This document shows positions 10,720 to 23,255 of a stretch of 64,000 nt of DNA, one piece after another. A program made the translations under genes and the position numbers. Every line of letters starts with the position of its first letter. Position 1 is the first letter of the stretch. This DNA is from Lentisphaerota bacterium (GTDB lineage: Bacteria > Verrucomicrobiota > Kiritimatiellia > UBA8416 > VGWI01): positions 25,357 through 89,356 of the forward strand of contig VGWI01000002.1 in the NCBI GenBank assembly GCA_016873655.1, written 5' to 3'. The notes under the pieces are model-generated. The model worked only from the letters and a program-made list of their open reading frames with translations. It was not told where the DNA came from and ran no database searches.

Positions 10720-12135
10720 ATGCGCCAACGTGACACATCGAGCGCGATTCAGAGTGTTCTGGCGGCGAGCATTGACGCCTGCGCCGTGTTCGCCGGCTTC
10801 ATGCTCGCCACGAAGGCCAGGTTCGATACGGGGCTGATCCCTCTGAGGCACGGCCGCCCCCCGCACCTCTACGAAATGTATGCGGCTGGCGCGGCCGTGG
10901 CGGTCCCGCTCTTCCTGTTCGTCTACCAGGCGCTCGGCCTCTACGTGCGCCCGCAGACGGGCAACTTCGAGAACCGGATACCCCGGATCGTCCGCGGCAG
11001 CATCATCGGCTCCGTTCTCGCCGTGGTAGTGGCGTTCGTGCTGAAGAACGAGATGGAATTCTCCAGCATGGTGATACTGCTTGCCGCGCCGATCACCACG
11101 GCACTTGTCCTGCTCGAACGATATGTCGTCTACCGCGCGGAATGGAACATGGCCCGGCACAGCCCGAAGACCAGCCGCGTGATCGTCGTCGGCACCGATC
11201 CGGTTGCGGTGCGGCTCAGCCGCACAATCCGCAAGGAGCCGATGCTCCGCGCGGAAGTGGTCGGATACCTGCGCGCCGGCGTGGAACCGGCCGCCGCGGA
11301 TATCCCCGCCGACAGAATACTCGGCACGCCGGACGACCTGCCGCGCCTCATAGGCGAGCTGGGAGTCGACCGCGTGATCCTGACGGGGGCCGGACTCGGA
11401 AGAAAGGCGATCCTGGACTTGCTCCTGCTGTGCGAGCGGCGGATGGTGACGTTCAACATGGTCCCGGACCTGTTCAGCATCATGACCAGCAGCATGGATG
11501 TCCAGTCGCTGAACGACATCCCTCTCCTGAGCGTGGGGCACTGGCCGCTGGATCACCTGTGGAACCGGGCGCTCAAGAGAACCGAGGATATCGCCGGCTC
11601 CATCTTCGGGCTCGTCATAGGCGCACCGGCAATCGCCCTCGCCGCAGCCGCCATACGCGCGACATCGCCGGGGCCTGTTTTCTTCCGCCAGGAACGCTGC
11701 GGACTCAAGGGCAAACCATTCACACTGTATAAGCTGCGCACCATGCGGATTGACGCGGAAGACGGAACCGGACCCGTCTTCACGGTTCCCGGCGATCCGC
11801 GCACGACGAAGGTGGGCGCCTTCCTGCGCCGGCACAACCTGGATGAACTGCCGCAGCTTTGGAACGTCTTCAAGGGCGACATGAGCCTCGTCGGGCCGAG
11901 GCCCGAACGCCCGCACTTCGTCGAGCGGTTTCGCGAAGACATCAACCGCTACATGTGGCGGCACGTCTCAAAGCCCGGCATCACCGGCTGGGCGCAGGTG
12001 AACGGACTGCGCGGAAGCACAACGAGCATCGAGGAACGCGTCCGCTACGATCTCTACTACCTTGAGAACTGGTCGCTGGCGTTCGATCTGAAAATACTGC
12101 TGCGCACCGTGTTTGCGCGCGAGAACGCGTACTGA
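10720..12135 (+). CDS. undecaprenyl-phosphate sugar phosphotransferase (WcaJ/EpsB-type exopolysaccharide priming glycosyltransferase)
   Basis: An N-terminal membrane domain plus the C-terminal bacterial sugar-transferase core (PGITGWAQVNGLRG, DLYYLENWSLAFDLKIL). Confidence 0.85.
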   Translation: MRQRDTSSAIQSVLAASIDACAVFAGFMLATKARFDTGLIPLRHGRPPHLYEMYAAGAAVAVPLFLFVYQALGLYVRPQTGNFENRIPRIVRGSIIGSVLAVVVAFVLKNEMEFSSMVILLAAPITTALVLLERYVVYRAEWNMARHSPKTSRVIVVGTDPVAVRLSRTIRKEPMLRAEVVGYLRAGVEPAAADIPADRILGTPDDLPRLIGELGVDRVILTGAGLGRKAILDLLLLCERRMVTFNMVPDLFSIMTSSMDVQSLNDIPLLSVGHWPLDHLWNRALKRTEDIAGSIFGLVIGAPAIALAAAAIRATSPGPVFFRQERCGLKGKPFTLYKLRTMRIDAEDGTGPVFTVPGDPRTTKVGAFLRRHNLDELPQLWNVFKGDMSLVGPRPERPHFVERFREDINRYMWRHVSKPGITGWAQVNGLRGSTTSIEERVRYDLYYLENWSLAFDLKILLRTVFARENAY

Positions 12136-12399: not shown

Positions 12400-13758
12400 C
12401 TATTCGCGCCCGCGCTTCAGGTTGTGCTTCCTGATGAGCCGCTGGAGGTAGGCGCGCTCGATGCCTGCTTCCTTCGCCGCCTGCGATACGTTGCCGTGAT
12501 GGCGGCGCAGCAGATCCTGCACGTAGTCGGCCTCGAACTTGCGGACAAGGTCGTTCTTCACATCCTTGAACGGACGGTCGGCGCTGAAGTCCAGCCCGCG
12601 CGAGTCCTCTTCGGTCTTCAGAATCCCCATGTAAAGAAAGGCGCTCAGGTCTATCGGCCGTTTCTGGCTGTAACACGCTATTTCGACCAGGTTCCGCAGC
12701 TCGCGGACATTGCCGGGCCATGTGTGGTTCCGGAGCGTCTCCATCGCCTTTTCGAAGTTGGCAACCTGTCCCATCGCATCCGGCCCCAGGAAGTCCTTCA
12801 GGAACGACTCGGCCAGCACCGAAATGTCGTCCTTCCGCCTGCGAAGCGCCGGAAGCTCGATGCGCGCAATGGAAAGACGGAAGAATAGATCCTCGCGAAA
12901 GCGCCCGGCCTGCACCTCGTTTACCAGCTTCTTGTTCGTGGCCGAAACGATGCGCACGTCCACGTGGCGGACGGTGTTGCTGCCAACCCGCCGGATCTCG
13001 CGCTTCTCAAGCACCCGCAGCAGCTTCGGCTGAAGCTCGGCGCTGAGGTCGGCAATCTCGTCAAGAAAGACCGTGCCGCCGTCGGCATGCTCGAACGCGC
13101 CGACACGGTCGGTGTTTGCGCCGGTGAAAGAGCCTTTCTGGTGACCGAACAACTCGCTCTCGATCAGCTCGCGGGCAAGCGAGGCGCAGTCAATCACGAT
13201 GAAGGGTTTGTCTTTCCGGCGGCTGTTCCGGTGAATCTCCTCCGCGACCACTTCCTTGCCGGTCCCGGTCTCGCCCTCGATCAGCACGGTCGCGTCGGTC
13301 GGCGCGTAGGTCTCTATCTCGTGAAAAACCCGCCGCATCGCCACACTGCGCCCGAGCAAGGCGCCAAGCGACGTCCGTTCGCTCAGGACGAATTCACGCG
13401 TCTCCTGGAGCGGACAGAACACGATCCGCGCCTTGCCAAGCTGGATCTCGGTGCCTTGCCCAAGGTACGCCTCTGACACCCTGACGCCGTTGACGTACGT
13501 GCCGTTCGTGCTGCCGACATCCCGAACCACGTACCCGTCATCGGGGGTCATCTCGATCTCACAGTGCCCTTTGGATACGGTGTCGTCAGGCAACTGCAGA
13601 TCGTTGTCCGGAGAACTGCCGATCGTGAATGCATCCTTGTCCAGGATGAACTCCCGGCCCTGCAGACCGCCGGATACGACAAGCAGCTTCGCCTTCTTAA
13701 TCAGCATCTGCCCGCACGGGCCGGGCTGCGTAATGATGAGTGTCGGACTGTCCACCAT
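12400..13758 (-). CDS. sigma-54-dependent transcriptional activator with N-terminal FHA domain (FHA, AAA+ sigma54 interaction, HTH)
   Basis: An FHA core ([22 protein letters not shown]...STNGTYVNG), Walker A GETGTGKE, a GAFTGA-like GSFTGA, ESELFGH and a C-terminal Fis-type HTH. It lies 60 bp downstream of the lipid-like operon on the same strand. The alternative start is the Met at 13707. Confidence 0.8.
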
Positions 13759-13817: not shown

Positions 13818-14891
13818 TCAAGGGCCGCGGGATGGGATGGGAGGACGTGGAGAGCCTGTGTGGGACCGCAATTCGACCAGCGCCTCTTCGCGGGTGAAAG
13901 AGCGTTCGCCGGCGTCGGCCATCATGTCCGCAAACCGCTTGCCGGAGAAGTCGAGGTTACGGCTGACCGAGTAGACGGCGTAGTGCGAGGGGTCCATGAA
14001 TGGCCTGTCGGCATCGAAAGCGTTTGACAGGGCGGAAACCATGCGGCCGAGGCCGACGCCTGCCCACATGGGGAGGCAGACTGTCTTGAAACGTTTCCCG
14101 GCCAGGAATACGTCCGCAACCATATGCGTGAACTCGTCAATGCTCGTTCGCTCCAAGTCAACCACGTTGATTGCCCTGCCCGCGGCGGCCCTGACCGTTG
14201 CCGCGAGGAAGCAGGCCTTCGCAACGTTGCGCACATGTGCAAGCGGCCACCTGTTTGCGCCGCGCCACGGCCCAAAGTGGACGATGAAAGGTGAAGAGCG
14301 CAGAAAGGAAGCGACTCTGGAAGTCAGCGTCAGGTCCCCGACGCCCCAGACCTGCGCCGGCCGGAGGATGGAATAGCGATCGGGTTCGAGTCCGGAGCGA
14401 ACGGCTTTCTCGGCCTCGATCTTGAACGCCGGGTACGGATTGGGCGGAAACGGCGAGAGCGGCAGGGCATCCTCGTCCTGGCCGTCGAAATCCCTCAGTC
14501 CGTAGACGTCGGTGGTGGAAACAAACACCAGGCGGCCGACATCGAATTCGTGCGCCAACTCAACCAGGACTCGAACCGGGTCAAGGTTGGTCCTCCGGAA
14601 TCGGGCGGTTCGTCCGGTATCCGTCGCACGGCCGGCGCAATGCACGATCGCATCCAGCTTTCCGCCCGCGGCTGCTTCGCGGACCGTGGCGCGGAGAGAT
14701 GCCGGCACGGTGATGTCGGTTCGCAGGAACGTGGTCTTCTCCAGGCCGGCCAGCACGTCGGCGGGTCTTTCGCCCGCGCCGGGGCGGCGCCTGTGGAATG
14801 TGCCGTACGTATTCCAGCCGCGCAGCGCAAAGAGCGCCGCCGCATAGCTGCCGATGAATCCGCCGGCGCCTGTGACAAGAACGGTGTTCAC
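13818..14891 (-). CDS. NAD-dependent epimerase/dehydratase-family (extended SDR) oxidoreductase
   Basis: A Rossmann motif, [15 protein letters not shown]. It overlaps the upstream gene by 4 nt (ATGA). It is the last gene of the 7-gene operon. Confidence 0.8.
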   Translation of the reverse strand: MNTVLVTGAGGFIGSYAAALFALRGWNTYGTFHRRRPGAGERPADVLAGLEKTTFLRTDITVPASLRATVREAAAGGKLDAIVHCAGRATDTGRTARFRRTNLDPVRVLVELAHEFDVGRLVFVSTTDVYGLRDFDGQDEDALPLSPFPPNPYPAFKIEAEKAVRSGLEPDRYSILRPAQVWGVGDLTLTSRVASFLRSSPFIVHFGPWRGANRWPLAHVRNVAKACFLAATVRAAAGRAINVVDLERTSIDEFTHMVADVFLAGKRFKTVCLPMWAGVGLGRMVSALSNAFDADRPFMDPSHYAVYSVSRNLDFSGKRFADMMADAGERSFTREEALVELRSHTGSPRPPIPSRGP

Positions 14892-16183
14892 GCAATGATC
14901 CCATTCCTGCGCCCGACATCCGCAAAGACGGAAAGGGCGGCGTCTATCTCAATCTCGGTCAGTGTGCTCATTGCGCTCACTCGCAGCCTGCATTCCTTGC
15001 GTCTCACAGCCGGGTATGTGACCAGGTTCGTGAAGACTCCGTTCGCGCGCAGCTCGTTGTGGAAGGCCGCAAGTTTCTGTTCATCGCCGACGATGACAGG
15101 GATTATCGCCGACTCCGTGTCACCGGTGTCGAAACCCAGCGCCTTGAGCCCGTCGCGCAGGCGGGCGATATTCCTCCACAACCTGTCCCTGCCTGCCGCA
15201 TCTGCGCGAATGAGGCGCAATGCCTCGACGAGTCCTGCCGCCGTCGGTGCGGGCATGCTGGTGGAGAAGAAATAGGTGCGCGCGTAGTAACGCAGGTAGC
15301 GGACGACGGACGCGCTTGCCGCGCAGTAGCCGCCTATGGCGCCGGGCGTCTTGCTCAGCGTACCGCAGAGCAGATCAATCCCGCGCGTGCAGCCGAAGTG
15401 CTCGGGCGTGCCCAGACCGGTCGGGCCGACGACTCCAAGTCCGTGCGCATCGTCCACCATCACGCGTGCGCGGTGGCGCCGGGCCAGGTCCGTGATCTCG
15501 TCAAGCGGCGCCAGGTCGCCGTCCATGGAGAAGACACCGTCGGTCACTATGAGCCTGCCGCGGACGGAGTCGGGTATGCGCTGGAGCACTCGCTCAAGGT
15601 GGCGCATGTTGCGGTGCAGGTAGACCTTTATTTCGGCGCCGGAGAGGCGGCAGCCGTCGAATATCGATGCGTGGTTCGAGGCGTCGTTGACAACAACATC
15701 CCCTGGTCCGCACAGGGCGGAGATGATGCCGACGTTCGCGGAGTAGCCGCACGGGAAGAGGATTGCGTCTTCCGTTCCGTAGAGCCCGGAGAGCTCCTCT
15801 TCAACAAGGCGGTGCAGCGGAGTCGTTCCGGCGTACAGGGAAACCGCGCCCATGCCGTAGCCGTACTCGGCGCATGCCTTGATGCTTGCGGCGACAACGG
15901 CGGGATGTGTTGTCAGCGCCAGATAGGAATTGGACCCGAGCATGGTCACTTTGTGGCTGTGGCCGTCGTGCTCGCGGACCGTGCACGTGTGGGCTGCCGG
16001 CCCCTCCATTCGCAGGCCGAGCCCTTCAGTGTACGAAGCCGGGTTGGCGCCCAGGTAGGAATCAAGGGCGTCGGCCTTCGCGAAGATGTCCGCATCGCCG
16101 TCTTGCGGAATGAAGTCCTCGAAGCGCCGTTCGGTCCCGTCCTCGCCACTGTCGCCGGGCAGCTTTCCCGGTTCCTTGTTCAT
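14888..16183 (-). CDS. alpha-oxoamine synthase family PLP-dependent acyltransferase (Spt/Kbl/BioF-like)
   Basis: A class I/II aminotransferase fold with a PLP-Lys context, [17 protein letters not shown], plus SMDGDLAPL and DDAHGLG. It has an N-terminal extension of about 60 aa. The ATG at 16183 overlaps the upstream stop. Confidence 0.8.
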
Positions 16184-17397
16184 GTGGTTGCCTTTCTCCT
16201 TCGGTGGCAGCGAAGCGGAGTGTGCGAATCGCAATACACCGTGCACAGGTTGCAGTTGGTACAGCCCGACCGTTCAGCCGAGCCCGACAGAAGACGCGCC
16301 GGCAAACCAGGGTCATGGACCAGCGGTCTGCACAGCGAAACGGCATCGAGTCCGTGTTCCGAACGCGCGCGGAGCATTCCGTCCGGCGAGCGAATGCCGC
16401 CCACGGCCCAGACGGGCACAGGCACCGCTTTCCGGATGGCGGCCGCGGCCGGTACGTTGTAGTTCTCGCAGAACGGTATCAACCCGCGAAGATGGAACCG
16501 TGCGAACAGCGCCTTCCACGGCGTCCTTGCCCAGCGCGGGATACGCGCGAAGAGGGGATTGACGCACAGTGCAACATCCACCGGGCAGGCGCCGCGGATG
16601 ATGTTGAGCGCCGTCTCCATGGTTCCGTAACTCACTTCGAAGGCGTCAGCTCCGGCAGCGGCCGCGCGCCGTGCAGCGGTCACCGCGTCAGCCGTTGTCA
16701 GCCCCGGCCTGTTGTCGTCGCCGGCGCTCAATTTGACGAGGATGCCGAAATCAGGGCCTGTTTCCTCGCGGATGGCGCGCACTATTTCCTCGAGAAACAC
16801 CGGGCGGTCGCCCCAGCGGTCGCGGCGATTGTTTGTCCATGGCGACAGGAACTGGTGCACAAGGTAGCCGTGCGCGCCGTGCACCTGCACCCCGCTGAAT
16901 CCCGCCTTTTGCGCGCGCGCCGCGGCCGCGGCGAACTCGGCGACAACGCCGGCGACTTCGGAGTCGGACAGCCGGCGCACCTTCTGCCGGAAGTATGTGC
17001 ACCGGCGGGTGGACGCGCCGACCGCCTCCATTCCGGTGGCTTCATGGCGCGTCTGCCGGCCGGCGTGGGCCAGCTGCATGAACAGCGGGACGAGCGAGCC
17101 CGCCGAACGCGCAACTCGAACCGTTTCAGTCCAGGCCGGCAGCTTGTCATCAGAATCGATCCCGCACTGGCCCGGCTGCATCGCGCGGCCCTGCCGGGAA
17201 ACGAATGCAAAGCCTGTTATCAACGCGCCTGTTCCGCCCTTCACGAGTTGCGCGTACAGTTCACCCAGCGCCGGAGTAGGGAAGCCTTCGGAATCAGCCA
17301 TGCCCTCATAGGTGGCGGAGCGAACGATGCGGTTGGCGGCCGTGACCGAACCGAGGCGAAGCGGTGTTGCAAGAGACTGCGTAAGTCCGGAAGTCAT
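16180..17397 (-). CDS. Old Yellow Enzyme-family NADH:flavin (FMN) oxidoreductase / ene-reductase
   Basis: The motifs [10 protein letters not shown] and [28 protein letters not shown] are OYE signatures. The start is the Met at 17397 (ATGA overlap). Confidence 0.8.
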
Positions 17398-18398
17398 TTG
17401 CCCTCTCTTCCGGCAAGCAGCCGCTTTGCCTCCGCAACAGCTGCAAGCGCGTGCTGTCCGGCGTCGCGGGCTTCGCGCGGGCACGGCGGTGGACACGTCA
17501 TGGGCAAAGCGCGGGCGTCTGCAGCGGCAAAGAACACGCCGGCCTCGTTCGAGGGAAACGCACGGCCGATCCTCGTGAGGCCGGCCCGTGCACATTTCGC
17601 GGCGAGTGTGCCGCCGTCCCCGGCTGGAAACGAGAAGAGCAATTCGTATTCCCCCGCGCCGCCGAACAGGGCCGATTCGGGCGGCGCGCCGATTGCAGCG
17701 CAGGCCTGTTTCACTCCCTCGGAATAGGGTATCGCCGGCAGCTCCACTTCAAGGCGCATGCCTGGACTTGCGCGCCTCATCATCCACAGCGCATCCGCCA
17801 GGCCACCGCTGGTATCCGTGCCGGCAACGGCGGCTTCACGCGCCAGCGCAGCGGCGTTAACGCGCAGCTCCAGCGCCGGGGTGGGCGCCCCTGTCAGCGC
17901 GGCGGCGTTCATGTGCCCCAGGGCGCCGGAGATCCACAGATCCTGCTCCACGGCGGGAAGCACGCGTTTCAGCGGGGTGCGCGCCGCGAGCGGGCCCATC
18001 GCGAAGCCGGCATAGCGCCATTCGCCGGCTGTGCCGAGGTCGCCCCCGCACAGCGCACAGCCGGCGGAATCGAGAATGCGGGACAGCCCGCCGCAAAGGG
18101 CGGAGACGAAGTCGGCGGATACGTCGGCCGGCAGCGAAATGGAATGGAGCATGAAGCGCGGCTCCACGCCCGCTGCGAGCAGGTCGCTCAACGTCGCGAC
18201 CGCAAGATTCGCGCCCAGCAGGTCCGGGTCCGCGGAAGTGAACAGGTCCTCCTTCTCGCTGAATTCGTCCACCGTCAGGCCCCACACCGCGCCGCCCACG
18301 CGGATGAATTCGGCGTCGCTTTCGAACGGCGCGTTGAGCTGTTCCGGACTGCGCCTGAAGCGCGAAGCGATCGCCGCTATCGTTTCGTATTCGTTCAT
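17394..18398 (-). CDS. AIR synthase-related (PurM superfamily, ThiL/HypE-like) ATP-dependent enzyme
   Basis: An N-terminal ESDAEF...[13 protein letters not shown] region and a C-terminal domain typical of the PurM/ThiL fold. It is 334 aa. Confidence 0.65.
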
Positions 18399-19333
18399 GG
18401 CGCAGTTCCTTCCGGCGAAGCGGGGCCGCGCGTTCCGCAGATCAGGTCAAGGCGGCGCGCGTGCAGCTCAATACTGACCGGCAGACCGCCGTGCGAATCG
18501 CCATCGAACTCGACGGAGACCGGCCGTTCCGTGCGCATGGAGAACCTTCGGCAACTGCCGGTGAAGACTCCTTCCGCGTTCACGGCCGAACCCGCGTAGA
18601 AGGCCGGGAGAAGCGCGAGCATGCCGGTTCGGCTGCGTCCCGAGACGGTCACGACCGTCAGCAGGCCGTCGTCCGGAGACCGGTCCACACTCAGCCGCAG
18701 GCCGGAGGCGATCCACGGATTCTTGAGAACAGCCACGTGGTTCACGCCGCGGAGTTCCATGCGCCGGCCGTCCAGAAGTATCTCCGCGTCGAACCTGCGC
18801 ACGGTCGCGATGGCGCAGAGAAGCGCCATCGCCGTGCCCGCGGTGTCGCCAGTGAACCGCCGCAGGCGGTTCGCGATATCCGCCGTTTTTGCTCCCAGCC
18901 CGATGTTGCAGCCGCAGCCGAACCATGAGGTCGCCGGACCGCCGGCATTCTGGAACCCGATTGATGCCACATCAACCTTTGTGGCAAGGCCATCCAGCAG
19001 CACCTGCAGCGCCGCGGCCGGATCCGTCGGGATGGAATGAAAGCGGCAGAAGTCGGGGCTTGTCCCGGCGTACAGAACGCCCATGCGCCTCTCCGCGGCG
19101 GGCGCATCAGCCAGCCCGGCGAGCACCGCGTTGATGGTTCCGTCTCCGCCAACCGCGACAACGACATCAAACCCGGGGGCTTCGGTTGCCAGTTGCCGTG
19201 CATGGCCGAGGTCGCGCGTCACAACCGGTTCAAAGTCGGCTCCGGCGCGTTTCATGCCCTCTGTCCAGAACTTCCATCGCTTCCGGCCGCGGCCGGCGCG
19301 GGATCCGGGATTCAGGATCAACAGGTATTTCAC
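18395..19333 (-). CDS. DAGK_cat-family lipid kinase (YegS/BmrU/sphingosine-kinase-like)
   Basis: YLLILNPGSRAG plus VVAVGGDGTINAVL, the GGDGT signature of diacylglycerol kinase catalytic domains. The GTG start at 19333 overlaps the upstream stop (GTGA). Confidence 0.75.
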   Translation of the reverse strand: MKYLLILNPGSRAGRGRKRWKFWTEGMKRAGADFEPVVTRDLGHARQLATEAPGFDVVVAVGGDGTINAVLAGLADAPAAERRMGVLYAGTSPDFCRFHSIPTDPAAALQVLLDGLATKVDVASIGFQNAGGPATSWFGCGCNIGLGAKTADIANRLRRFTGDTAGTAMALLCAIATVRRFDAEILLDGRRMELRGVNHVAVLKNPWIASGLRLSVDRSPDDGLLTVVTVSGRSRTGMLALLPAFYAGSAVNAEGVFTGSCRRFSMRTERPVSVEFDGDSHGGLPVSIELHARRLDLICGTRGPASPEGTAP

Positions 19334-20619
19334 CGGTAGATGCCCAGCTTGTCGTAAACAGGCGTTCTGCCGCCGCGGTCCCAGCCGGCGATCAGTTCCT
19401 GTGTCTGCGGCCAGCGCAGCGGCATGTCGGACAGGGAGTTGCGCCGCGCTATCGCCGCGATTGCGGCGCCTTGCGTGCAGCAGAGCCAGTCGCAGCAAGG
19501 TTCGCGGAAGGCATCGCGCATCCTGGCGAGGATTGTCTCGAACGGCTCCTCGGCCACGTTTCCGAACGAGACGTTGAGAAACTCGCACGGCTGCACTTCT
19601 CCGTGCGCGTTCATGTAGAAGCGGTCCACGCCGCCGGCGGTACAACCGAGAACATCCGGCGACTCCTCGAAGACCTGCGCCGCAAGCGACGGATGGCCCT
19701 GGAAGGCGCGTGAATTGTAGCGGAGGTGCTGGGCACGGAGATGACGCAGCACGGCGGGGTCGGTCTGCATTTCCTCGCGGCGGCCGAGCCAGCGGCCTGC
19801 GGGCTTGGGATGGATGAGCTGCACGAAATCGCAGCCCTGGTCCCCTGCGAAATCCATCAGGTCCGTCAATCTGCCGTCGCGGACTTCCTGTTCGGAAAGG
19901 ACGCTGTTCACCGCGGTGACGAAGCCGTGCTTCTTGAACATCCGCAGCGCCCGGACCGCGGAACCGAAGGAGCCTGCGACGCCGGTCATTCGATCATGCT
20001 TCTCCCGGCTGGTGGAATGGACAGAGATCATGACCCCGTAAAGTCCCGCGTCTTCCAGTTCGCGCAGCATGTTTTCTTCGAGCCCGTCGCCGGTGGTGTT
20101 GACCCATATCTCGGAACGTTCATCCAGCGCCCGCATCAGGGCGATCAACCGGTCAAAGCGCAGAAGCGGTTCGCCGCCCTCGATGTCGAACATGGCAACG
20201 CCGGCGTCGCGCATGGCCACGGCCGAAGCGGCCATCAGTTCCGCGTCCATGTCCGCGCCTCGGTCCGTCCTCTGGTAGCAATGCTCGCAGCGGTAGCGGC
20301 AGGCCTTTGTCATCGAGAACACCACCGTGGTCGGGCCGGGCGGCCGCCTGACGAGTTTCGCGTCGAGCGCGTGGAAGAAGGCGGGGGACGGGTAGGCTGG
20401 CAGGTAGAGGTGCAGCTTGATGCCGGACCTGGTGCGGACGGCCTTGTTGTGCCTGAAGACGAGCAGCAGTCGGAGCGCCCGCGAAAGGAACAGGATGTAG
20501 TCCTTCGGCGACCAGCGCAGCTCGCCCATGCGGCGGGCATAGCGGAGCGCGACGCCTGCCGCTATTCGGACATACGTCCACGCCTTGGCCGGTCCGGTGA
20601 TGAAACGGCTGTCTTTCAC
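19330..20619 (-). CDS. radical SAM enzyme with C-terminal SPASM/twitch-type auxiliary cluster domain
   Basis: CRYRCEHC is a CxxxCxxC motif. The SPASM-like region is GCTAGGVDRFYMNAHGEVQPCEFLNVSFGN, and an extra CCDWLCC follows. The GTG start at 20619 overlaps the UbiA stop. The alternative start is the Met at 20529. Confidence 0.75.
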   Translation of the reverse strand: MKDSRFITGPAKAWTYVRIAAGVALRYARRMGELRWSPKDYILFLSRALRLLLVFRHNKAVRTRSGIKLHLYLPAYPSPAFFHALDAKLVRRPPGPTTVVFSMTKACRYRCEHCYQRTDRGADMDAELMAASAVAMRDAGVAMFDIEGGEPLLRFDRLIALMRALDERSEIWVNTTGDGLEENMLRELEDAGLYGVMISVHSTSREKHDRMTGVAGSFGSAVRALRMFKKHGFVTAVNSVLSEQEVRDGRLTDLMDFAGDQGCDFVQLIHPKPAGRWLGRREEMQTDPAVLRHLRAQHLRYNSRAFQGHPSLAAQVFEESPDVLGCTAGGVDRFYMNAHGEVQPCEFLNVSFGNVAEEPFETILARMRDAFREPCCDWLCCTQGAAIAAIARRNSLSDMPLRWPQTQELIAGWDRGGRTPVYDKLGIYR

Positions 20620-21608
20620 GAGCGGGCGTCCTTGTGAAGATCGAAGAGGAAGCCGATGAACACATAGCTGGCAGTGAGCAGGTACAGCGCAAGCGTGCCG
20701 TTGAAGATGGCGATCATCGTCACCTGGCCGGCCACGCAGGCGCGGATATTCGTAACCAGGCTGAAATACGTTCTGTCGCCCAGCGGATGACGGAAGTAGA
20801 GAACGGCCGTCCAGAGCTGAAGAAACAGTGTCATCACAGCGCAGAAGACGAAGTCGCGCATGAACAGCACGTCGCCCAGCGGCAGCCAACCGAGAGAATG
20901 CAGCAGCACGAAAAGGAGCGTTGGGAGAAATGCGCCGGCGACGCCGGCATAGCGGGCGGCGTTCAGGCCGTACTTGACGACAAACGTCTTCTTCCCCGCC
21001 GCCCTGTCACCCCTGTAGTCCTTGAAGTAGGTATAGTATGTCATCAGCGCGTTGATCAGCGCCACCAGCGCGAAAGCCGATATGCGGTTGCTGGTGAAGA
21101 GCGGCGTTGGAGGCGGTCCTGAGGCAAGAAACCCGTATGCCATGCACGTCGCGATGGAGAGTCCGAAGACCGCGTTTCCGACAAGCGACCATGCCTTCGC
21201 GTATTCGTACAGGATGTTCAGAAGCACCCCGATCACGGCGGGAACAACGGACCACGGTTCGAGGAACCATGACACGGCTCCGACCAGGAAGAGGAGCCCG
21301 ACCGAGACAAGCATGGCGGCCCCGGGGTTGAGTTCGCCGGTAACCATCGGCCTGTTGGGTGCGTTGATGCGGTCTTCCTTCAGTCCGAAGAAGTCGTTGA
21401 TGACCTGGTTGACGCCGTAGCTGAGGAACAGCATGCCGAGTATCAGGGCCTTGCGCCCCGCCCCCCCGGCGCCGGGGCAGCAGAAGTCATAAAAGGATAC
21501 GCCTATCCAGCCGGCTATGCCGGTGACAAACGAGAAGTACAGCCGCATCGAGCGGATGTAAGCGAAGATGAAGGCGAGGGTGGAGCCGGAGCCGGAGCCA
21601 ACATTCAT
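20616..21608 (-). CDS. UbiA-family aromatic/alkyl prenyltransferase (ChlG/DGGGPS-like subfamily)
   Basis: It has 8-9 TM helices. The Asp-rich motif VINDFFGLKEDRINAPNRPMVTG resembles the NDxxDxxxDxINxPxRP motif of chlorophyll synthase and DGGGPS. It is the first gene of the operon. The long N-terminal part of ORF 20616..22064 is discarded as non-coding. Confidence 0.8.
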   Translation of the reverse strand: MNVGSGSGSTLAFIFAYIRSMRLYFSFVTGIAGWIGVSFYDFCCPGAGGAGRKALILGMLFLSYGVNQVINDFFGLKEDRINAPNRPMVTGELNPGAAMLVSVGLLFLVGAVSWFLEPWSVVPAVIGVLLNILYEYAKAWSLVGNAVFGLSIATCMAYGFLASGPPPTPLFTSNRISAFALVALINALMTYYTYFKDYRGDRAAGKKTFVVKYGLNAARYAGVAGAFLPTLLFVLLHSLGWLPLGDVLFMRDFVFCAVMTLFLQLWTAVLYFRHPLGDRTYFSLVTNIRACVAGQVTMIAIFNGTLALYLLTASYVFIGFLFDLHKDARS

Positions 21609-21764
21609 TGCCGCATTGAACCCTGAAGCGGGAGCGGCTTCAATCGCTTTCTTTTCGTCCCGGCAACCTGACGTGGCAGGCTGGACTGAAAGGCCAGGAA
21701 CGAATATTGTGGCCGGGTTGTTCGAATGAAGTTCTGATGCGGCGCGTGTCGGAGGACGGCGGTC

Positions 21765-23255
21765 ATGCCTCGAATAGACGAGTTCCTGCGGATAATGCTC
21801 GAGCGGGGGTCCAGCGACCTTCACATGGTAAGCGGGCACAGGCCGTACCTGCGCGTCTCCGGAGACGTGACGCCGATCGAGGAGATGGCGGCCCTCTCCA
21901 GCGATGAGATCCGCGGGATTGTCGAGGAAATAGCCCCGGAAGACAACCGCGCCCAGTTCAGCGCCGATTGGGACACGGACTTCGCCTACCAGAACTCGGA
22001 CCTCGAGCGCTTCCGTGTGAACTGTTTCATGGATAGCAACGGCGCGGGCTCTGTCATCCGCCACATACCGGGCGCCATCCCCACTTTCGACCAGCTCGGC
22101 CTTCCCCAGGTCCTGCGCGAGATGTGCCTGCTGACCAAGGGCCTGGTGATAGTCACCGGGCCCACGGGCTGCGGAAAATCAACCACCCTCGCGGCCATGA
22201 TAGACCTCATCAACAGGACAAGGGCCGAGCACATTGTTACGATCGAGGACCCGATCGAGTTCATGCACAAGCCCAAGATGTGCCTCATCAACCAGCGCGA
22301 AGTTCACAAGCACACGAAGAGCTTCTCGGCAGCGCTGCGGGCTGCCCTGCGCGAAGACCCCAACATCGTGCTCGTGGGCGAAATGCGAGACCTTGAAACC
22401 GTGGAAATCGCGCTGGAAACCGCGGAAACCGGCCACCTCGTGTTCGGCACGCTGCACACAAACACCGCCGTCTCCACGATCGACCGGATCATCGACAAGT
22501 TCCCGTCCGGCGAACAGAACCAGATACGCACGATGCTCGCCGATACGCTCAAGGGCGTTGTCGCCCAGACACTGTGCAAACGCCGCACCGGCGGACGCGT
22601 TGCGGCAATGGAGATCCTGGTGGTCACTTCCGGAATAGCTTCGAACATACGCGACGGGAAGTCGCACCAGATCGCCTCTTCGATCCAGACAGGCGGCGCG
22701 CTCGGAATGTGCCTCTTCGAAGACAGCCTTTTTGCACTCGTACGCGACGGGGCAATAACCACGAAGGAAGCGTATCTGAAGGCCGTGCGGAAAGACCTCA
22801 TACGCAAGAAGCTGCTCGACGCCGGCTTCCCGCTGGACGTCGGCGCGGACGAGATCCGCAGGAACGAGGGCAGCCTGGAAGAAGGGACATCGGCCCGCCC
22901 GGAAGAGGACATGCTCACGGAGTGCAGGGAGCGTCTGCGAACCGACCCCGACAACGTGGACTCGCTGTGCGACGCGGCATGGATCATGTCCGCCGGCGGC
23001 GATCTGAGCCTCAGGAAAGGGCGCGATGCCGTGAAGCTGGCCGAGCGCGCGGCGAAACTGACCGGCGGCAACGACATGCACGTCCTGATAGTTCTCGCCG
23101 CCGCGCAGGCGGAAAGCGGCAACTTCAAACGGGCGGTTGGTTTCGCGACCCAGGCGCTGGAACTGGCCGAGATCGCGGGAAGCGACAGCATTGCCGAACA
23201 ACTCCGCGCGCACCTGGCCACGTATGAGCAGAACCGCGCGCTGGGCCGGACCTGA
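21765..23255 (+). CDS. pilT: type IV pilus retraction ATPase PilT-like with C-terminal TPR-like extension of about 150 aa
   Basis: Walker A GPTGCGKSTT and PilT motifs (His/Asp boxes, GMCLFEDSL). The residues after about 345 are alpha-helical and TPR-like. Confidence 0.8.
   Translation: MPRIDEFLRIMLERGSSDLHMVSGHRPYLRVSGDVTPIEEMAALSSDEIRGIVEEIAPEDNRAQFSADWDTDFAYQNSDLERFRVNCFMDSNGAGSVIRHIPGAIPTFDQLGLPQVLREMCLLTKGLVIVTGPTGCGKSTTLAAMIDLINRTRAEHIVTIEDPIEFMHKPKMCLINQREVHKHTKSFSAALRAALREDPNIVLVGEMRDLETVEIALETAETGHLVFGTLHTNTAVSTIDRIIDKFPSGEQNQIRTMLADTLKGVVAQTLCKRRTGGRVAAMEILVVTSGIASNIRDGKSHQIASSIQTGGALGMCLFEDSLFALVRDGAITTKEAYLKAVRKDLIRKKLLDAGFPLDVGADEIRRNEGSLEEGTSARPEEDMLTECRERLRTDPDNVDSLCDAAWIMSAGGDLSLRKGRDAVKLAERAAKLTGGNDMHVLIVLAAAQAESGNFKRAVGFATQALELAEIAGSDSIAEQLRAHLATYEQNRALGRT

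What the first reader, a model, noticed from the sequence alone, without database searches (positions are those of the whole stretch)
19330..20619. Radical SAM-SPASM enzyme in a lipid-gene context rather than a RiPP context
Seen: a canonical CxxxCxxC, a SPASM/twitch signature (C-x3-G...G-x-V-x-P-C...GN) and an additional CCxxxCC near the C-terminus. No precursor-peptide-like small ORF is adjacent. Its neighbours are membrane-lipid-type enzymes.

Established: most SPASM proteins modify peptides or proteins. The lipid-modifying rSAMs described so far (tetraether synthase, membrane-spanning lipid synthase, GDGT ring synthases) differ in architecture.

Inference: this may be a new rSAM-SPASM subclass acting on a lipid or small molecule, for example C-C coupling or cyclisation.
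Basis: partly seen in the sequence, partly recalled or inferred. Interest (0 to 1): 0.55.

Follow-up and report, generated by a model that had tools for sequence, protein, structure and literature searches.

The report
Radical SAM partner of lipid prenyltransferase
This gene encodes an uncharacterised iron-sulfur radical enzyme that always travels with a membrane prenyltransferase and sphingolipid-type enzymes in a tightly packed operon, found in many uncultured anaerobic bacteria, so it most likely tailors an unknown membrane lipid and not a peptide.

Summary
Window 19330-20619 (-) encodes a 429-aa radical SAM protein with CxxxCxxC and the first half of a SPASM motif (C326-x13-G-x4-C345). The 'CCxxxCC' is not a conserved feature. 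Across the family only C326, C345 and C380 are invariant and the CX2CX5CX3C block is missing, so it looks like a one-cluster 'twitch' enzyme, not a full SPASM.

It is gene 2 of a seven-gene operon in which every junction is a 4-nt start/stop overlap: DGGGP-synthase-like UbiA, rSAM, DgkB-like lipid kinase, ThiL-like kinase, Fe-S old-yellow-enzyme reductase, serine-palmitoyltransferase-like oxoamine synthase, extended SDR. The same gene set recurs in about 140 loci from about 13 bacterial phyla, all metagenome-derived. Natural UbiA-rSAM and SDR-rSAM fusions exist. Some lineages add ACP, ketosynthase, dehydratase and an MMPL exporter. There is no conserved precursor peptide, no named family and no literature.

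A sister rSAM family sits in a second lipid cluster type that also has UbiA and kinases.

Verdict: a new rSAM family that tailors a phosphorylated long-chain (sphingoid-type/prenyl) lipid together with UbiA. The exact reaction is unknown; my leading guess is O2-independent oxidation or desaturation near the lipid head.

The parts
19330..20619 (-). Radical SAM / twitch-type enzyme, 429 aa. This is the finding.
   Evidence: ORF and translation. Pfam Radical_SAM and SPASM. 770+ homologues, the 120 listed at 56-76% identity and about 428 aa. AF2 model with pLDDT 92.6.
20335..20619 (-). N-terminal about 95-aa domain (helix-helix-hairpin-helix) containing the conserved 'LYLPAYPSPAF' motif. It matches no known family.
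   Evidence: AF2 secondary structure. No Pfam or NCBIfam hit even at relaxed thresholds. The motif is kept in the wider clade.
20278..20301 (-). CxxxCxxC (C107, C111, C114), ligands of the radical SAM [4Fe-4S] cluster.
   Evidence: Translation. Invariant in 40 close and 19 diverse homologues.
20167..20178 (-). GGEP (GGE) SAM-binding motif.
   Evidence: Translation. Invariant.
19585..19644 (-). Twitch / half-SPASM motif C326-x13-G-x4-C345, flanking a beta-hairpin.
   Evidence: Translation. Strands 333-336 and 341-343 in the AF2 model. Both Cys are invariant. The Pfam SPASM match covers model positions 4-52 only.
19477..19497 (-). CCDWLCC (aa 375-381). Only C380, in the 'WLC' context, is invariant and is the likely third ligand of the single auxiliary cluster.
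   Evidence: Cys conservation table: C380 19/19, C375 10/19, C376 4/19, C381 11/19. Fusion proteins P0122 and P0123 keep only the C380 equivalent.
20616..21608 (-). UbiA-family prenyltransferase, 330 aa, first gene of the operon. Its stop overlaps the rSAM start (GTGA).
   Evidence: Pfam UbiA. The closest solved relative is M. jannaschii DGGGP synthase 6m31, E=1.9e-11. Junction. 55-80% identical orthologues lie next to the rSAM. Natural UbiA-rSAM fusions.
18395..19333 (-). Soluble lipid kinase (DAGK_cat + YegS_C), 312 aa. Its start overlaps the rSAM stop.
   Evidence: Pfam and NCBIfam. Closest PDB entry is DgkB 2qv7. Junction.
17394..18398 (-). ThiL-like (AIR-synthase-related) ATP-dependent enzyme, 334 aa. 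Presumed phosphate-to-diphosphate kinase.
   Evidence: Pfam AIRS. TIGR01379 thiL scores 107 bits, below its cutoff of 184. Closest PDB entries are thiamine-monophosphate kinases.
16180..17397 (-). Old-yellow-enzyme/FadH-type FMN reductase, 405 aa, with a C-terminal Cx2Cx2Cx3C Fe-S motif and no NAD(P)H domain. Optional member of the cluster.
   Evidence: Pfam Oxidored_FMN. The Cys motif is conserved in 35 of 39 orthologues. The gene is absent from some loci, such as L004, L011, L018, L072 and L122.
14888..16183 (-). Alpha-oxoamine synthase, 431 aa, most similar to bacterial serine palmitoyltransferase.
   Evidence: NCBIfam Kbl, BioF and SPT models all score below their cutoffs. PDB best hit is SPT 3a2b at 269 bits, then KBL at 253.
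13818..14891 (-). Extended SDR (epimerase / 3beta-HSD / NAD_binding_4 type), 357 aa, last gene of the operon. Presumed keto-reductase of the oxoamine product.
   Evidence: Pfam and NCBIfam. Conserved at the end of the cluster. A natural SDR-rSAM fusion exists, P0122.

Best explanation
Layer 1 (well supported, p about 0.85). The protein founds an unnamed family of twitch-type radical SAM enzymes. It has one SAM cluster on CxxxCxxC and one auxiliary [4Fe-4S] cluster held by three invariant Cys (C326, C345, C380), so that cluster may have an open or variably ligated fourth site. It is the partner of a DGGGP-synthase-like UbiA prenyltransferase in a translationally coupled seven-gene lipid operon.

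Inferred pathway:
1. The SPT-like oxoamine synthase condenses an amino acid with an acyl-ACP/CoA to give an alpha-amino ketone.
2. The Fe-S OYE, which is optional, saturates an enone.
3. The SDR reduces the ketone to a sphingoid-type amino alcohol.
4. The DgkB-like kinase and the ThiL-like kinase phosphorylate the lipid, possibly as far as a diphosphate.
5. UbiA makes an ether (or N-alkyl) link between this lipid and a prenyl chain at the cytoplasmic face of the membrane.
6. The rSAM, sitting against or fused to UbiA, modifies that lipid by radical chemistry.

Layer 2 (committed guess, p about 0.3). SAM cleavage gives 5'-deoxyadenosyl radical, which abstracts an H atom from a carbon close to the phosphorylated head or ether linkage. 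The auxiliary cluster binds the substrate and/or accepts the second electron. The net result is an O2-independent two-electron oxidation: a desaturation to an allylic system, or an alcohol-to-ketone/lyase step as in BtrN, DesII or AprD4. This step would prepare or complete the UbiA transfer. It would be the anaerobic counterpart of O2-dependent sphingolipid desaturases and hydroxylases.
For: - Identity and motifs.
- One-cluster topology, with Cys before and after the hairpin, a helix, then a Cys.
- No known family or close structure.
- Operon with six 4-nt overlaps.
- The seven-gene set is conserved in 60 genome loci from about 13 phyla. It is collinear in PVC groups, Elusimicrobia, Armatimonadota, Sumerlaeia and Auribacterota, and shuffled but still linked in Riflebacteria, Omnitrophota, Fibrobacteres, Bacteroidetes, Cloacimonadota and Bacteriovoracaceae.
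- Reverse test starting from UbiA: 43 of 51 metagenome loci with enough downstream sequence carry the rSAM, 36 of them immediately downstream. Most of the rest have the UbiA-OYE-first order, in which the rSAM lies 8-10 kb away, beyond the flank.
- Fusions UbiA-rSAM (P0123, P0124) and SDR-rSAM (P0122). The two UbiA-rSAM fusions recur as full-length proteins in independent assemblies; P0122 is a single sequence.
- Lipid nature: UbiA is closest to DGGGP synthase, the oxoamine synthase to SPT and the kinase to DgkB. ACP, FabF-like KS, PKS-type DH and an MMPL exporter are inserted in the Riflebacteria version. A KS is inserted in the FCB-type version.
- A sister rSAM family (about 160 bits) lies in a second cluster type with UbiA, a CarS-like gene, PPDK-like dikinases, a PlsC acyltransferase (fused to the rSAM in P0264) and FAAL/ACP-reductase-kinase.
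- For layer 2: a single auxiliary cluster is typical of small-molecule twitch enzymes. The best PDB sequence hits are BlsE, SkfB, MoaA, PqqE and DesII. The SDR-rSAM fusion parallels rSAM-lyase plus reductase pairs, which I cite from general knowledge. All hosts are MAGs from largely anoxic habitats.
Against: - No biochemical data exist and no cultured host with a known lipid was found.
- The AF2 coordinates could not be inspected, so the spatial clustering of C326, C345 and C380 is inferred from topology only.
- The amino-acid and acyl substrates of the oxoamine synthase, the acceptor and donor of UbiA, and the substrate of the ThiL-like enzyme are all inferred from family resemblance. Every NCBIfam equivalog score for the seven operon genes is below its cutoff.
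- Similarity to BlsE, DesII and MoaA is confined to the rSAM core, with TM about 0.5 for every solved structure, so it does not discriminate reaction type.
- Characterised lipid rSAMs (Tes, Gms, Mss) mostly make C-C bonds.
- The sister cluster has no amino alcohol, which argues against chemistry specific to the amino group.
Confidence: 0.45

Rival explanations
1. Tes/Gms/Mss-like C-C bond former. The rSAM abstracts H from an unactivated carbon of the alkyl or prenyl tail and couples it to a second tail or to the same molecule. The product would be a macrocyclic, cross-linked or membrane-spanning version of the hybrid lipid, or a ring in the prenyl chain.
For: - Most characterised lipid rSAMs do this kind of chemistry (review PMC13459092).
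- Gms has a comparable layout of N-terminal helical domain, RS core, bridging hairpin and SPASM, and is restricted to anaerobes.
- Tethering to UbiA at the membrane.
Against: - There is no detectable sequence relationship to the solved tetraether synthase. It is absent from the PDB sequence hits at E<=0.01 and from the top 50 Foldseek hits.
- Gms has two fully ligated auxiliary clusters, whereas this protein has one with three invariant Cys.
- Tail-coupling enzymes are not usually translationally coupled to the enzymes that build the backbone.
- Many invariant residues are polar or basic, for example H270, K272, R333 and R157. That hints at a phosphorylated head-group ligand, although their location in the pocket is not verified.
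Confidence: 0.2
2. HpnH/MqnE-like adenosyl transfer. The 5'-deoxyadenosyl radical adds to a double bond of the prenyl group installed by UbiA. The adenosyl-lipid formed is then processed into a polar head group.
For: - The substrate after UbiA would carry alkenes.
- HpnH appears among the weak NCBIfam hits, at 46.7 bits.
- The operon encodes no obvious head-group transferase.
Against: - The HpnH score is far below its cutoff of 225.
- No nucleosidase or phosphorylase-type follow-up enzyme is present in the conserved set.
- The kinases already provide a phosphate head group.
Confidence: 0.07
3. Non-lipid small-molecule or cofactor pathway, for example an AhbD/NirJ-like tetrapyrrole reaction or a prenylated amino-ketone metabolite or signal. 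The rSAM would tailor a soluble intermediate.
For: - The best named HMM hits after GeoRSP are NirJ2 and AhbD.
- Oxoamine synthases also make ALA, KAPA, aminoketobutyrate and CAI-1.
- The ThiL-like enzyme resembles a cofactor kinase.
Against: - The AhbD and NirJ scores are 80-85 bits against cutoffs of 500.
- ACP, KS, DH and an MMPL exporter are inserted in lineage variants.
- The kinase is DgkB-like and the UbiA is DGGGPS-like.
- The sister cluster is full of glycerolipid enzymes.
Confidence: 0.08
4. Peptide or protein maturase (RiPP or anSME-type) whose substrate is encoded elsewhere. The lipid neighbours would be coincidental.
For: - Most SPASM/twitch proteins with a Pfam SPASM hit are peptide or protein modifiers.
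- Foldseek's top hits include SkfB, SuiB, PqqE and anSME.
- PVC bacteria are rich in sulfatases (general knowledge).
Against: - Linkage to the same six genes is seen in about 140 loci across about 13 phyla, and the genes are fused in some.
- There is no conserved small ORF.
- No RRE or PqqD-like domain was detected.
- All RiPP-maturase equivalog scores are far below their cutoffs.
- There is only one auxiliary-cluster site.
Confidence: 0.03

Closest known systems
Twitch-domain radical SAM enzymes acting on small molecules (BtrN, MoaA, and relatives such as BlsE and DesII)
   Same: - A partial TIM-barrel rSAM core.
- A truncated SPASM ('twitch') with Cys before and after a beta-hairpin plus a later Cys, giving one auxiliary [4Fe-4S] site.
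- MoaA likewise uses three Cys, which leaves a free Fe for substrate (general knowledge).
- These proteins are the best PDB sequence hits.
   Different: - Similarity is limited to the core: E is 1e-7 at best and TM is about 0.5.
- The N-terminal 95-aa domain and the C-terminal 45-aa extension are unique.
- The context is a membrane-lipid operon, not sugar, aminoglycoside or Moco genes.
GMGT synthase Gms (archaeal lipid rSAM-SPASM; PMC11186832)
   Same: - A lipid-modifying rSAM with an N-terminal helical domain, RS core, bridging hairpin and a SPASM-type C-terminal domain.
- Restricted to anaerobes.
   Different: - Gms has two auxiliary clusters, each with four Cys. This protein has one site with three invariant Cys.
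- Gms acts on finished GDGTs and is not reported as operonic with UbiA.
- The sequence relationship was not tested here, because no Gms sequence was available.
Tetraether synthase Tes / GDGT-MAS and bacterial Mss
   Same: Radical SAM enzymes that work on membrane lipid chains at the membrane surface. Tes acts downstream of a UbiA-family DGGGP synthase in the archaeal pathway.
   Different: - No detectable similarity to the solved Tes homologue.
- Different cluster complement.
- Those enzymes are not fused to, or translationally coupled with, the prenyltransferase.
Archaeal ether-lipid core pathway (GGGPS, DGGGPS, CarS, GGR)
   Same: - The UbiA here is closest to DGGGP synthase.
- The logic is the same: a single-chain backbone phosphate receives a second, prenyl chain, and is then activated and reduced.
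- The sister cluster even contains a CarS-like gene.
   Different: - The backbone appears to be made by an SPT-like oxoamine synthase, an SDR and a kinase, not from glycerol-1-phosphate.
- Activation would be by a ThiL-like kinase, not CTP.
- The reductase is an Fe-S OYE, not an FAD-dependent GGR.
- The hosts are bacteria.
Bacterial sphingolipid pathway (Spt, CerR-type extended SDR, DAGK-like ceramide kinase)
   Same: An SPT-like PLP enzyme, an epimerase-type SDR and a DAGK_cat lipid kinase occur together.
   Different: - There is no ceramide synthase (N-acyltransferase). A UbiA prenyltransferase, an rSAM, a ThiL-like enzyme and an Fe-S OYE take its place.
- SPT equivalog cutoffs are not reached: 337 bits against 640.

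Membership tests
Radical SAM superfamily (PF04055) | CxxxCxxC motif for the SAM-binding [4Fe-4S] cluster | tested here: met
   C107-x3-C111-x2-C114. Invariant in homologues. Pfam E=4e-17.
Radical SAM superfamily (PF04055) | GGE SAM-binding motif and a partial (beta/alpha)6 barrel | tested here: met
   GGEP at aa 148-151. Six beta/alpha repeats in the AF2 model, pLDDT 92.6. Foldseek matches rSAM cores.
SPASM subfamily (PF13186 / TIGR04085) | First half-motif CX9-15GX4C around a beta-hairpin | tested here: met
   C326-x13-G340-x4-C345. Hairpin strands at 333-336 and 341-343. PF13186 scores 22-25 bits over model positions 4-52.
SPASM subfamily (PF13186 / TIGR04085) | Second motif CX2CX5CX3C plus a final Cys, giving 7-8 conserved Cys for two auxiliary clusters | tested here: not met
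   The motif is absent. Only C326, C345 and C380 are invariant in 19 diverse members. PF13186 positions 53-67 are unmatched. The C-terminal 130 aa give no TIGR04085 hit at E<=0.01.
Twitch subclass (BtrN/MoaA type) | Truncated SPASM with Cys flanking the hairpin and a further Cys after the following helix | tested here: met
   C326 / hairpin / C345 / helix 360-370 / C380.
Twitch subclass (BtrN/MoaA type) | Actually binds exactly one auxiliary [4Fe-4S] cluster | not testable with these tools
   Needs Fe/S quantification and EPR or Moessbauer spectroscopy.
RiPP radical SAM maturases (PqqE, MftC, AlbA, SkfB, StsB ...) | Adjacent precursor-peptide gene | tested here: not met
   All operon junctions are 4-nt overlaps. 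No small ORF outside the core genes is conserved in 61 loci.
RiPP radical SAM maturases (PqqE, MftC, AlbA, SkfB, StsB ...) | N-terminal RRE (PqqD-like) domain | tested here: inconclusive
   The N-terminal 95 aa give no Pfam or NCBIfam hit, even at E<=10. RREs are divergent, however, and no structural comparison of the isolated domain was possible.
RiPP radical SAM maturases (PqqE, MftC, AlbA, SkfB, StsB ...) | Reaches the curated equivalog score | tested here: not met
   PqqE 56.6 against 381; MftC 58.1 against 265; AlbA 40.4 against 850; StsB 71.2 against 625.
AhbD / NirJ (tetrapyrrole rSAM-SPASM) | Reaches the curated equivalog score | tested here: not met
   AhbD 80.3 against 500; NirJ2 84.8 against 500; NirJ 68.1 against 515.
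anSME (sulfatase maturase) | Full SPASM with two auxiliary clusters and a sulfatase partner | tested here: not met
   One three-Cys site. There are no sulfatase genes in the conserved neighbourhood. The structural match to anSME has TM of only 0.5.
Tetraether synthase Tes / GDGT-MAS | Detectable homology to the solved enzyme | tested here: not met
   Absent from the PDB sequence hits at E<=0.01 and from the 50 best Foldseek matches.
GMGT synthase Gms | Two fully Cys-ligated auxiliary clusters (PMC11186832) | tested here: not met
   Only three invariant auxiliary Cys, compared with the description.
GMGT synthase Gms | Sequence homology to Gms (WP_062369926 / METOK_RS04425) | not tested
HpnH (adenosyl-hopene transferase) | Reaches the curated equivalog score | tested here: not met
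   46.7 bits against a cutoff of 225.

The most novel reading that the evidence does not exclude
The operon makes a chimeric membrane lipid not yet described. The backbone would be a sphingoid-type long-chain amino alcohol, built by bacterial/eukaryote-style oxoamine-synthase chemistry. It would be phosphorylated and joined to a second chain by an archaeal-type DGGGP-synthase-like UbiA.

In the boldest version, the DgkB-like and ThiL-like kinases turn the lipid alcohol into a non-isoprenoid lipid diphosphate. The rSAM makes this allylic by O2-independent desaturation, so that UbiA can use it as an alkyl donor. That would be a new, radical-assisted route to ether (or N-alkyl) lipids.

The parallel 'two phosphotransferases + UbiA + sister rSAM' cluster in Desulfobacterota-like contigs would be a second instance of the same logic, starting from fatty alcohols. 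The lipid would be widespread in uncultured anaerobes: PVC groups, Elusimicrobia, Riflebacteria, Omnitrophota, Cloacimonadota and others.
Probability: 0.2. Interest if true: 0.85.

Novelty: new variant of a known kind. Interest (0 to 1): 0.66.

Why it matters
If the inference is right, many uncultured anaerobic bacterial phyla share a strongly conserved pathway. The UbiA is 46-83% identical and the rSAM 36-73% identical across the related loci. The pathway combines sphingolipid-type backbone synthesis, an archaeal-type prenyltransferase and a radical SAM enzyme.

- It bears on the 'lipid divide' debate. DGGGPS-like genes in bacterial MAGs could belong to this pathway and need not indicate archaeol synthesis.
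- It bears on the search for the biological sources of orphan sedimentary lipids.
- It bears on how anaerobes replace O2-dependent lipid tailoring.
- It adds a large, unnamed three-Cys twitch clade (391 representatives at E<1e-30) to the short list of lipid-associated rSAMs. It also supplies ready-made fusion proteins (UbiA-rSAM) for biochemical work.

Tried and rejected
- An exact look-up of the window protein's contig found nothing on record.
- Seven literature searches found no paper on this cluster. The term sets combined radical SAM, UbiA/prenyltransferase, SPT/oxoamine synthase, lipid kinase/OYE, sphingolipid/sphingoid, DGGGP synthase, and names of host phyla. The Cloacimonetes GGGPS/DGGGPS paper does not mention these phyla or an rSAM neighbour.
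- A sigma-54 -24/-12 promoter upstream of the operon, suggested by the adjacent sigma-54 activator: no match beyond chance and none in the 21609-21765 region.
- Riboswitches or other Rfam RNAs over 12-24 kb: none at E<=1.
- Sigma-70 promoter and terminator scans gave nothing above shuffled expectation.
- The first small-ORF clustering returned only shadow ORFs inside conserved genes. After masking, only the ACP remained.
- The B12-rSAM lipid desaturase Ted was considered as a relative and rejected. It is a B12-binding class, and this protein has no B12 domain.
- An anSME role was considered, given sulfatase-rich PVC hosts, and rejected (see membership tests).
- The substrate amino acid of the oxoamine synthase could not be assigned from sequence. 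SPT, KBL and BioF models score similarly and all below their cutoffs.


Full report
**1. The observation**

Window 19330-20619 on the minus strand is a 429-aa ORF with a GTG start. It has ten cysteines: 107, 111, 114, 263, 326, 345, 375, 376, 380 and 381.
- Pfam gives Radical_SAM (E=4e-17), Fer4_12, and a marginal SPASM hit of 22.3 bits against a cutoff of 21.5. The SPASM hit covers only model positions 4-52 of 67.
- The gene model is sound. 770+ database proteins match, and the 120 listed are 56-76% identical and almost all 426-451 aa.

**2. Which cysteines matter**

- In 40 close homologues the invariant Cys are 107, 111, 114, 326, 345 and 380. C381 is present in at least 90%, and C375 in fewer.
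- I then aligned 19 members from distant lineages: Riflebacteria, Omnitrophota, Fibrobacteres, Bacteroidetes, Cloacimonadota, Bacteriovoracaceae, Auribacterota and others. Only C326, C345 and C380 remain invariant outside the SAM motif. C375 occurs in 10/19, C376 in 4/19, C381 in 11/19 and C263 in 10/19.
- There is no CX2CX5CX3C block. The C-terminal 130 aa do not hit the SPASM model TIGR04085 at E<=0.01; only the hairpin region weakly resembles AhbD and NirJ2.
- The AF2 model has pLDDT 92.6 and pTM 0.92. It shows a six-stranded partial barrel, a bridging region, a beta-hairpin (333-336 and 341-343) bracketed by C326 and C345, a helix (360-370), then C380.
- That is the topology of a 'twitch' (truncated SPASM) domain with one auxiliary cluster. 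It has three invariant ligands and a variable or open fourth site.

**3. No known family**

- No NCBIfam equivalog comes near its cutoff. GeoRSP scores 106 against 400, NirJ2 85 against 500, AhbD 80 against 500, PqqE 57 against 381, MftC 58 against 265, HpnH 47 against 225 and BlsE 37 against 400.
- Against all PDB sequences the best hits are BlsE (1.8e-7), SkfB, MoaA, PqqE and DesII. These matches cover the core only.
- Foldseek against the PDB gives SkfB, SuiB, BlsE, DesII, viperin, PqqE, anSME and MoaA, all with TM about 0.5.
- The solved tetraether synthase is not among the sequence hits or the top 50 fold hits.
- The N-terminal 95 aa (helix-helix-hairpin-helix, with a conserved LYLPAYPSPAF motif) match nothing in Pfam or NCBIfam.

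**4. The operon**

Seven minus-strand genes are joined by six 4-nt start/stop overlaps (GTGA or ATGA).

| Gene | Coordinates | Closest relative and evidence |
|---|---|---|
| UbiA | 20616-21608 | Closest solved relative is M. jannaschii DGGGP synthase, E=1.9e-11 |
| rSAM | 19330-20619 | See sections 1-3 |
| Lipid kinase | 18395-19333 | DAGK_cat/YegS_C; closest is DgkB |
| ThiL-like | 17394-18398 | AIR-synthase-related; closest are thiamine-monophosphate kinases |
| OYE reductase | 16180-17397 | OYE/FadH-type FMN reductase with a C-terminal Cx2Cx2Cx3C Fe-S motif, kept in 35/39 orthologues, and no NAD(P)H domain |
| Oxoamine synthase | 14888-16183 | Closest to bacterial SPT (269 bits), then KBL (253) |
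| SDR | 13818-14891 | Extended SDR of the epimerase / 3beta-HSD / NAD_binding_4 type |

There is no intergenic space for a precursor gene. The 157-bp region upstream of UbiA holds only unconserved ORFs.

**5. Conservation of the gene set**

- A scan of one genome per species found 60 loci, all from MAGs. They come from Verrucomicrobiota/Kiritimatiellia, Lentisphaeria/Victivallales, Planctomycetota, Armatimonadota, Elusimicrobia, Sumerlaeia, Auribacterota, Riflebacteria, Omnitrophota, Zixiibacteriota, Bacteriovoracaceae, Fibrobacteres, Bacteroidetes and Cloacimonadota.
- tblastn with the window's proteins shows the same seven genes, in the same order, in roughly 40 of the 60 loci. In the distant lineages the same set is present in shuffled order.
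- OYE is missing from a few loci (L004, L011, L018; also L072, L073 and L122), so it is an optional tailoring step.
- Clustering all flank ORFs found no other broadly conserved family.
- Lineage-specific additions:
  - In Riflebacteria, an MMPL transporter, a FabF-like ketosynthase and an ACP recur across the loci; in L031 a PKS-type dehydratase also sits between OYE and the oxoamine synthase.
  - In the FCB-type arrangement, a ketosynthase between the ThiL-like gene and the SDR.
  - In a Cloacimonadota locus, a CysK-like PLP enzyme and a MobA-like nucleotidyltransferase.
- These additions (acyl-chain building, ACP, exporter) argue that the product is a lipid.

**6. Reverse test**

I started from the UbiA protein in metagenome contigs and obtained 80 loci. 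Of the 51 with at least 1.3 kb downstream, 43 contain the rSAM, and in 36 it lies immediately downstream. Most of the remaining eight have the UbiA-OYE-first arrangement, in which the rSAM lies 8-10 kb away and so beyond the fetched flank. I found no clear case of this UbiA without the rSAM.

**7. Fusions and the wider clade**

- A profile search of 1.84 billion cluster representatives gave 391 hits at E<1e-30.
- Among the best hits are P0123 (739 aa) and P0124 (721 aa), which are UbiA-rSAM fusions, and P0122 (787 aa), an SDR-rSAM fusion.
- The two UbiA-rSAM fusion clusters each contain 6-7 full-length members from independent assemblies, so they are not assembly artefacts. P0122 is a single sequence.
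- Weaker hits (150-280 bits) keep the N-terminal motif and the three auxiliary Cys. They include a Helarchaeota protein, methyltransferase fusions and a PlsC-acyltransferase-rSAM fusion, P0264.
- I followed that sister family, P0264 and P0295-P0314, which includes proteins from Ca. Electrothrix and Deltaproteobacteria MAGs. Its genes sit in a second recurrent cluster with a CarS-like gene, one or two PPDK-like dikinases, a UbiA (called in two of the five loci and faintly in a third), a methyltransferase, a PlsC acyltransferase and a FAAL plus ACP-reductase-kinase protein. One locus also has a B12-rSAM.
- The combination of a lipid alcohol, phosphotransferases, UbiA and this rSAM clade therefore occurs in two different cluster types.

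**8. What it most likely does**

Shown: the domain composition, the single conserved auxiliary-Cys triad, operon coupling, synteny, fusions and the absence of a precursor.

Inferred from family resemblance:
- The oxoamine synthase and SDR, with OYE in some lineages, build a sphingoid-type amino alcohol from an acyl thioester.
- The DgkB-like and ThiL-like enzymes phosphorylate it, possibly to a diphosphate.
- The DGGGPS-like UbiA forms an ether or N-alkyl link to a prenyl chain.
- The rSAM, held at the cytoplasmic membrane face next to UbiA, modifies this lipid.

My committed guess (about 0.3):
- The chemistry is H-abstraction near the head or ether region, with the auxiliary cluster acting as substrate ligand and/or electron acceptor.
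- The result is an O2-independent desaturation or oxidation, of the BtrN, DesII or AprD4 kind.
- It may create the allylic system that a UbiA enzyme needs.

Rivals are Tes/Gms-like C-C coupling or cyclisation (about 0.2), HpnH-like adenosylation of a prenyl alkene (about 0.07), a non-lipid cofactor or metabolite pathway (about 0.08) and a peptide maturase (about 0.03). The remainder is chemistry I have not thought of.

**9. Comparison with what is known**

- A 2026 review of lipid-modifying rSAMs lists Tes, Mss, Gms, GrsA/B, Gmm, Cds, HpnH/J/P/R, Jaw5 and ladderane candidates. None of them has this context.
- Gms shows that a SPASM-type rSAM can act on lipids.
- Seven literature searches found nothing on this cluster.
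- The protein is a radical SAM enzyme of the twitch type, which is a known kind. It belongs to an unnamed family in an undescribed, widely distributed pathway. I classify it as a new variant of a known kind.

**10. Limits**

- Every functional assignment beyond the domain level is inference.
- All hosts are uncultured.
- The AF2 coordinates could not be inspected.
- No regulatory RNA or promoter signal was found.

Noticed in passing
window 12400-13758 (-): A sigma-54-dependent activator with an N-terminal FHA domain lies directly downstream of the operon on the same strand. It is not part of the conserved set in other loci. No -24/-12 promoter match lies upstream of the operon.
   Followed up: partly
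window 21765-23255 (+): A PilT-family type IV pilus ATPase carries an extra C-terminal region of about 150 aa that is TPR-like. It is transcribed divergently from the lipid operon. Weak PilT-like hits also lie about 4.2 kb upstream of the cluster in two Elusimicrobia loci, L026 and L027.
   Followed up: no
window 16180-17397 (-); orthologues in L001-L058: The OYE/FadH-type reductase ends in a ferredoxin-like Cx2Cx2Cx3C...C motif, conserved in 35/39 orthologues, and has no NAD(P)H/FAD domain. It is therefore probably ferredoxin-driven. The gene is absent from several otherwise complete clusters.
   Followed up: partly
L031 2108-7485 (also L032, L033, L056, L038, L042): The Riflebacteria versions of the cluster insert an MMPL/RND-type transporter, a FabF-like ketosynthase and an 83-aa ACP. 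In L031 a 187-aa protein with no family hit and a PKS-type dehydratase also lie between OYE and the oxoamine synthase.
   Followed up: partly
L138 4369-5637; L131 11872-13194; L055 1124-3077: The FCB-type arrangement (UbiA-OYE-AOS-kinase-ThiL-...-SDR-rSAM) carries a ketosynthase between the ThiL-like gene and the SDR. One Cloacimonadota locus has a CysK/cysteate-synthase-like PLP enzyme and a MobA-like nucleotidyltransferase just upstream. These may supply an unusual amino acid or head group.
   Followed up: partly
L061-L065 (contigs carrying P0264, P0314, P0304, P0312, P0311): A second recurrent lipid cluster occurs in Desulfobacterota-like contigs. It contains a sister rSAM (sometimes fused to a PlsC acyltransferase), a CarS-like gene, PPDK/rifampin-phosphotransferase-like dikinases, a methyltransferase, PlsC and FAAL plus ACP-reductase-kinase. 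A UbiA is called in two of the five loci and faintly in a third, and one locus has a B12-rSAM. I did not recognise it as a described system, and the literature searches run here did not target it.
   Followed up: partly
P0130 (1467 aa, Logan contig of 10.3 kb): A full-length member of this rSAM family is fused to a C-terminal region of about 1000 aa that contains a DUF362 domain. It is a single sequence, so an assembly artefact is not excluded.
   Followed up: no
window 10720-12135 (+): A WcaJ-type polyprenyl-phosphate glycosylphosphotransferase lies about 1.7 kb beyond the operon's end. A homologue also appears about 10 kb from the cluster in L009. This is probably coincidental.
   Followed up: no
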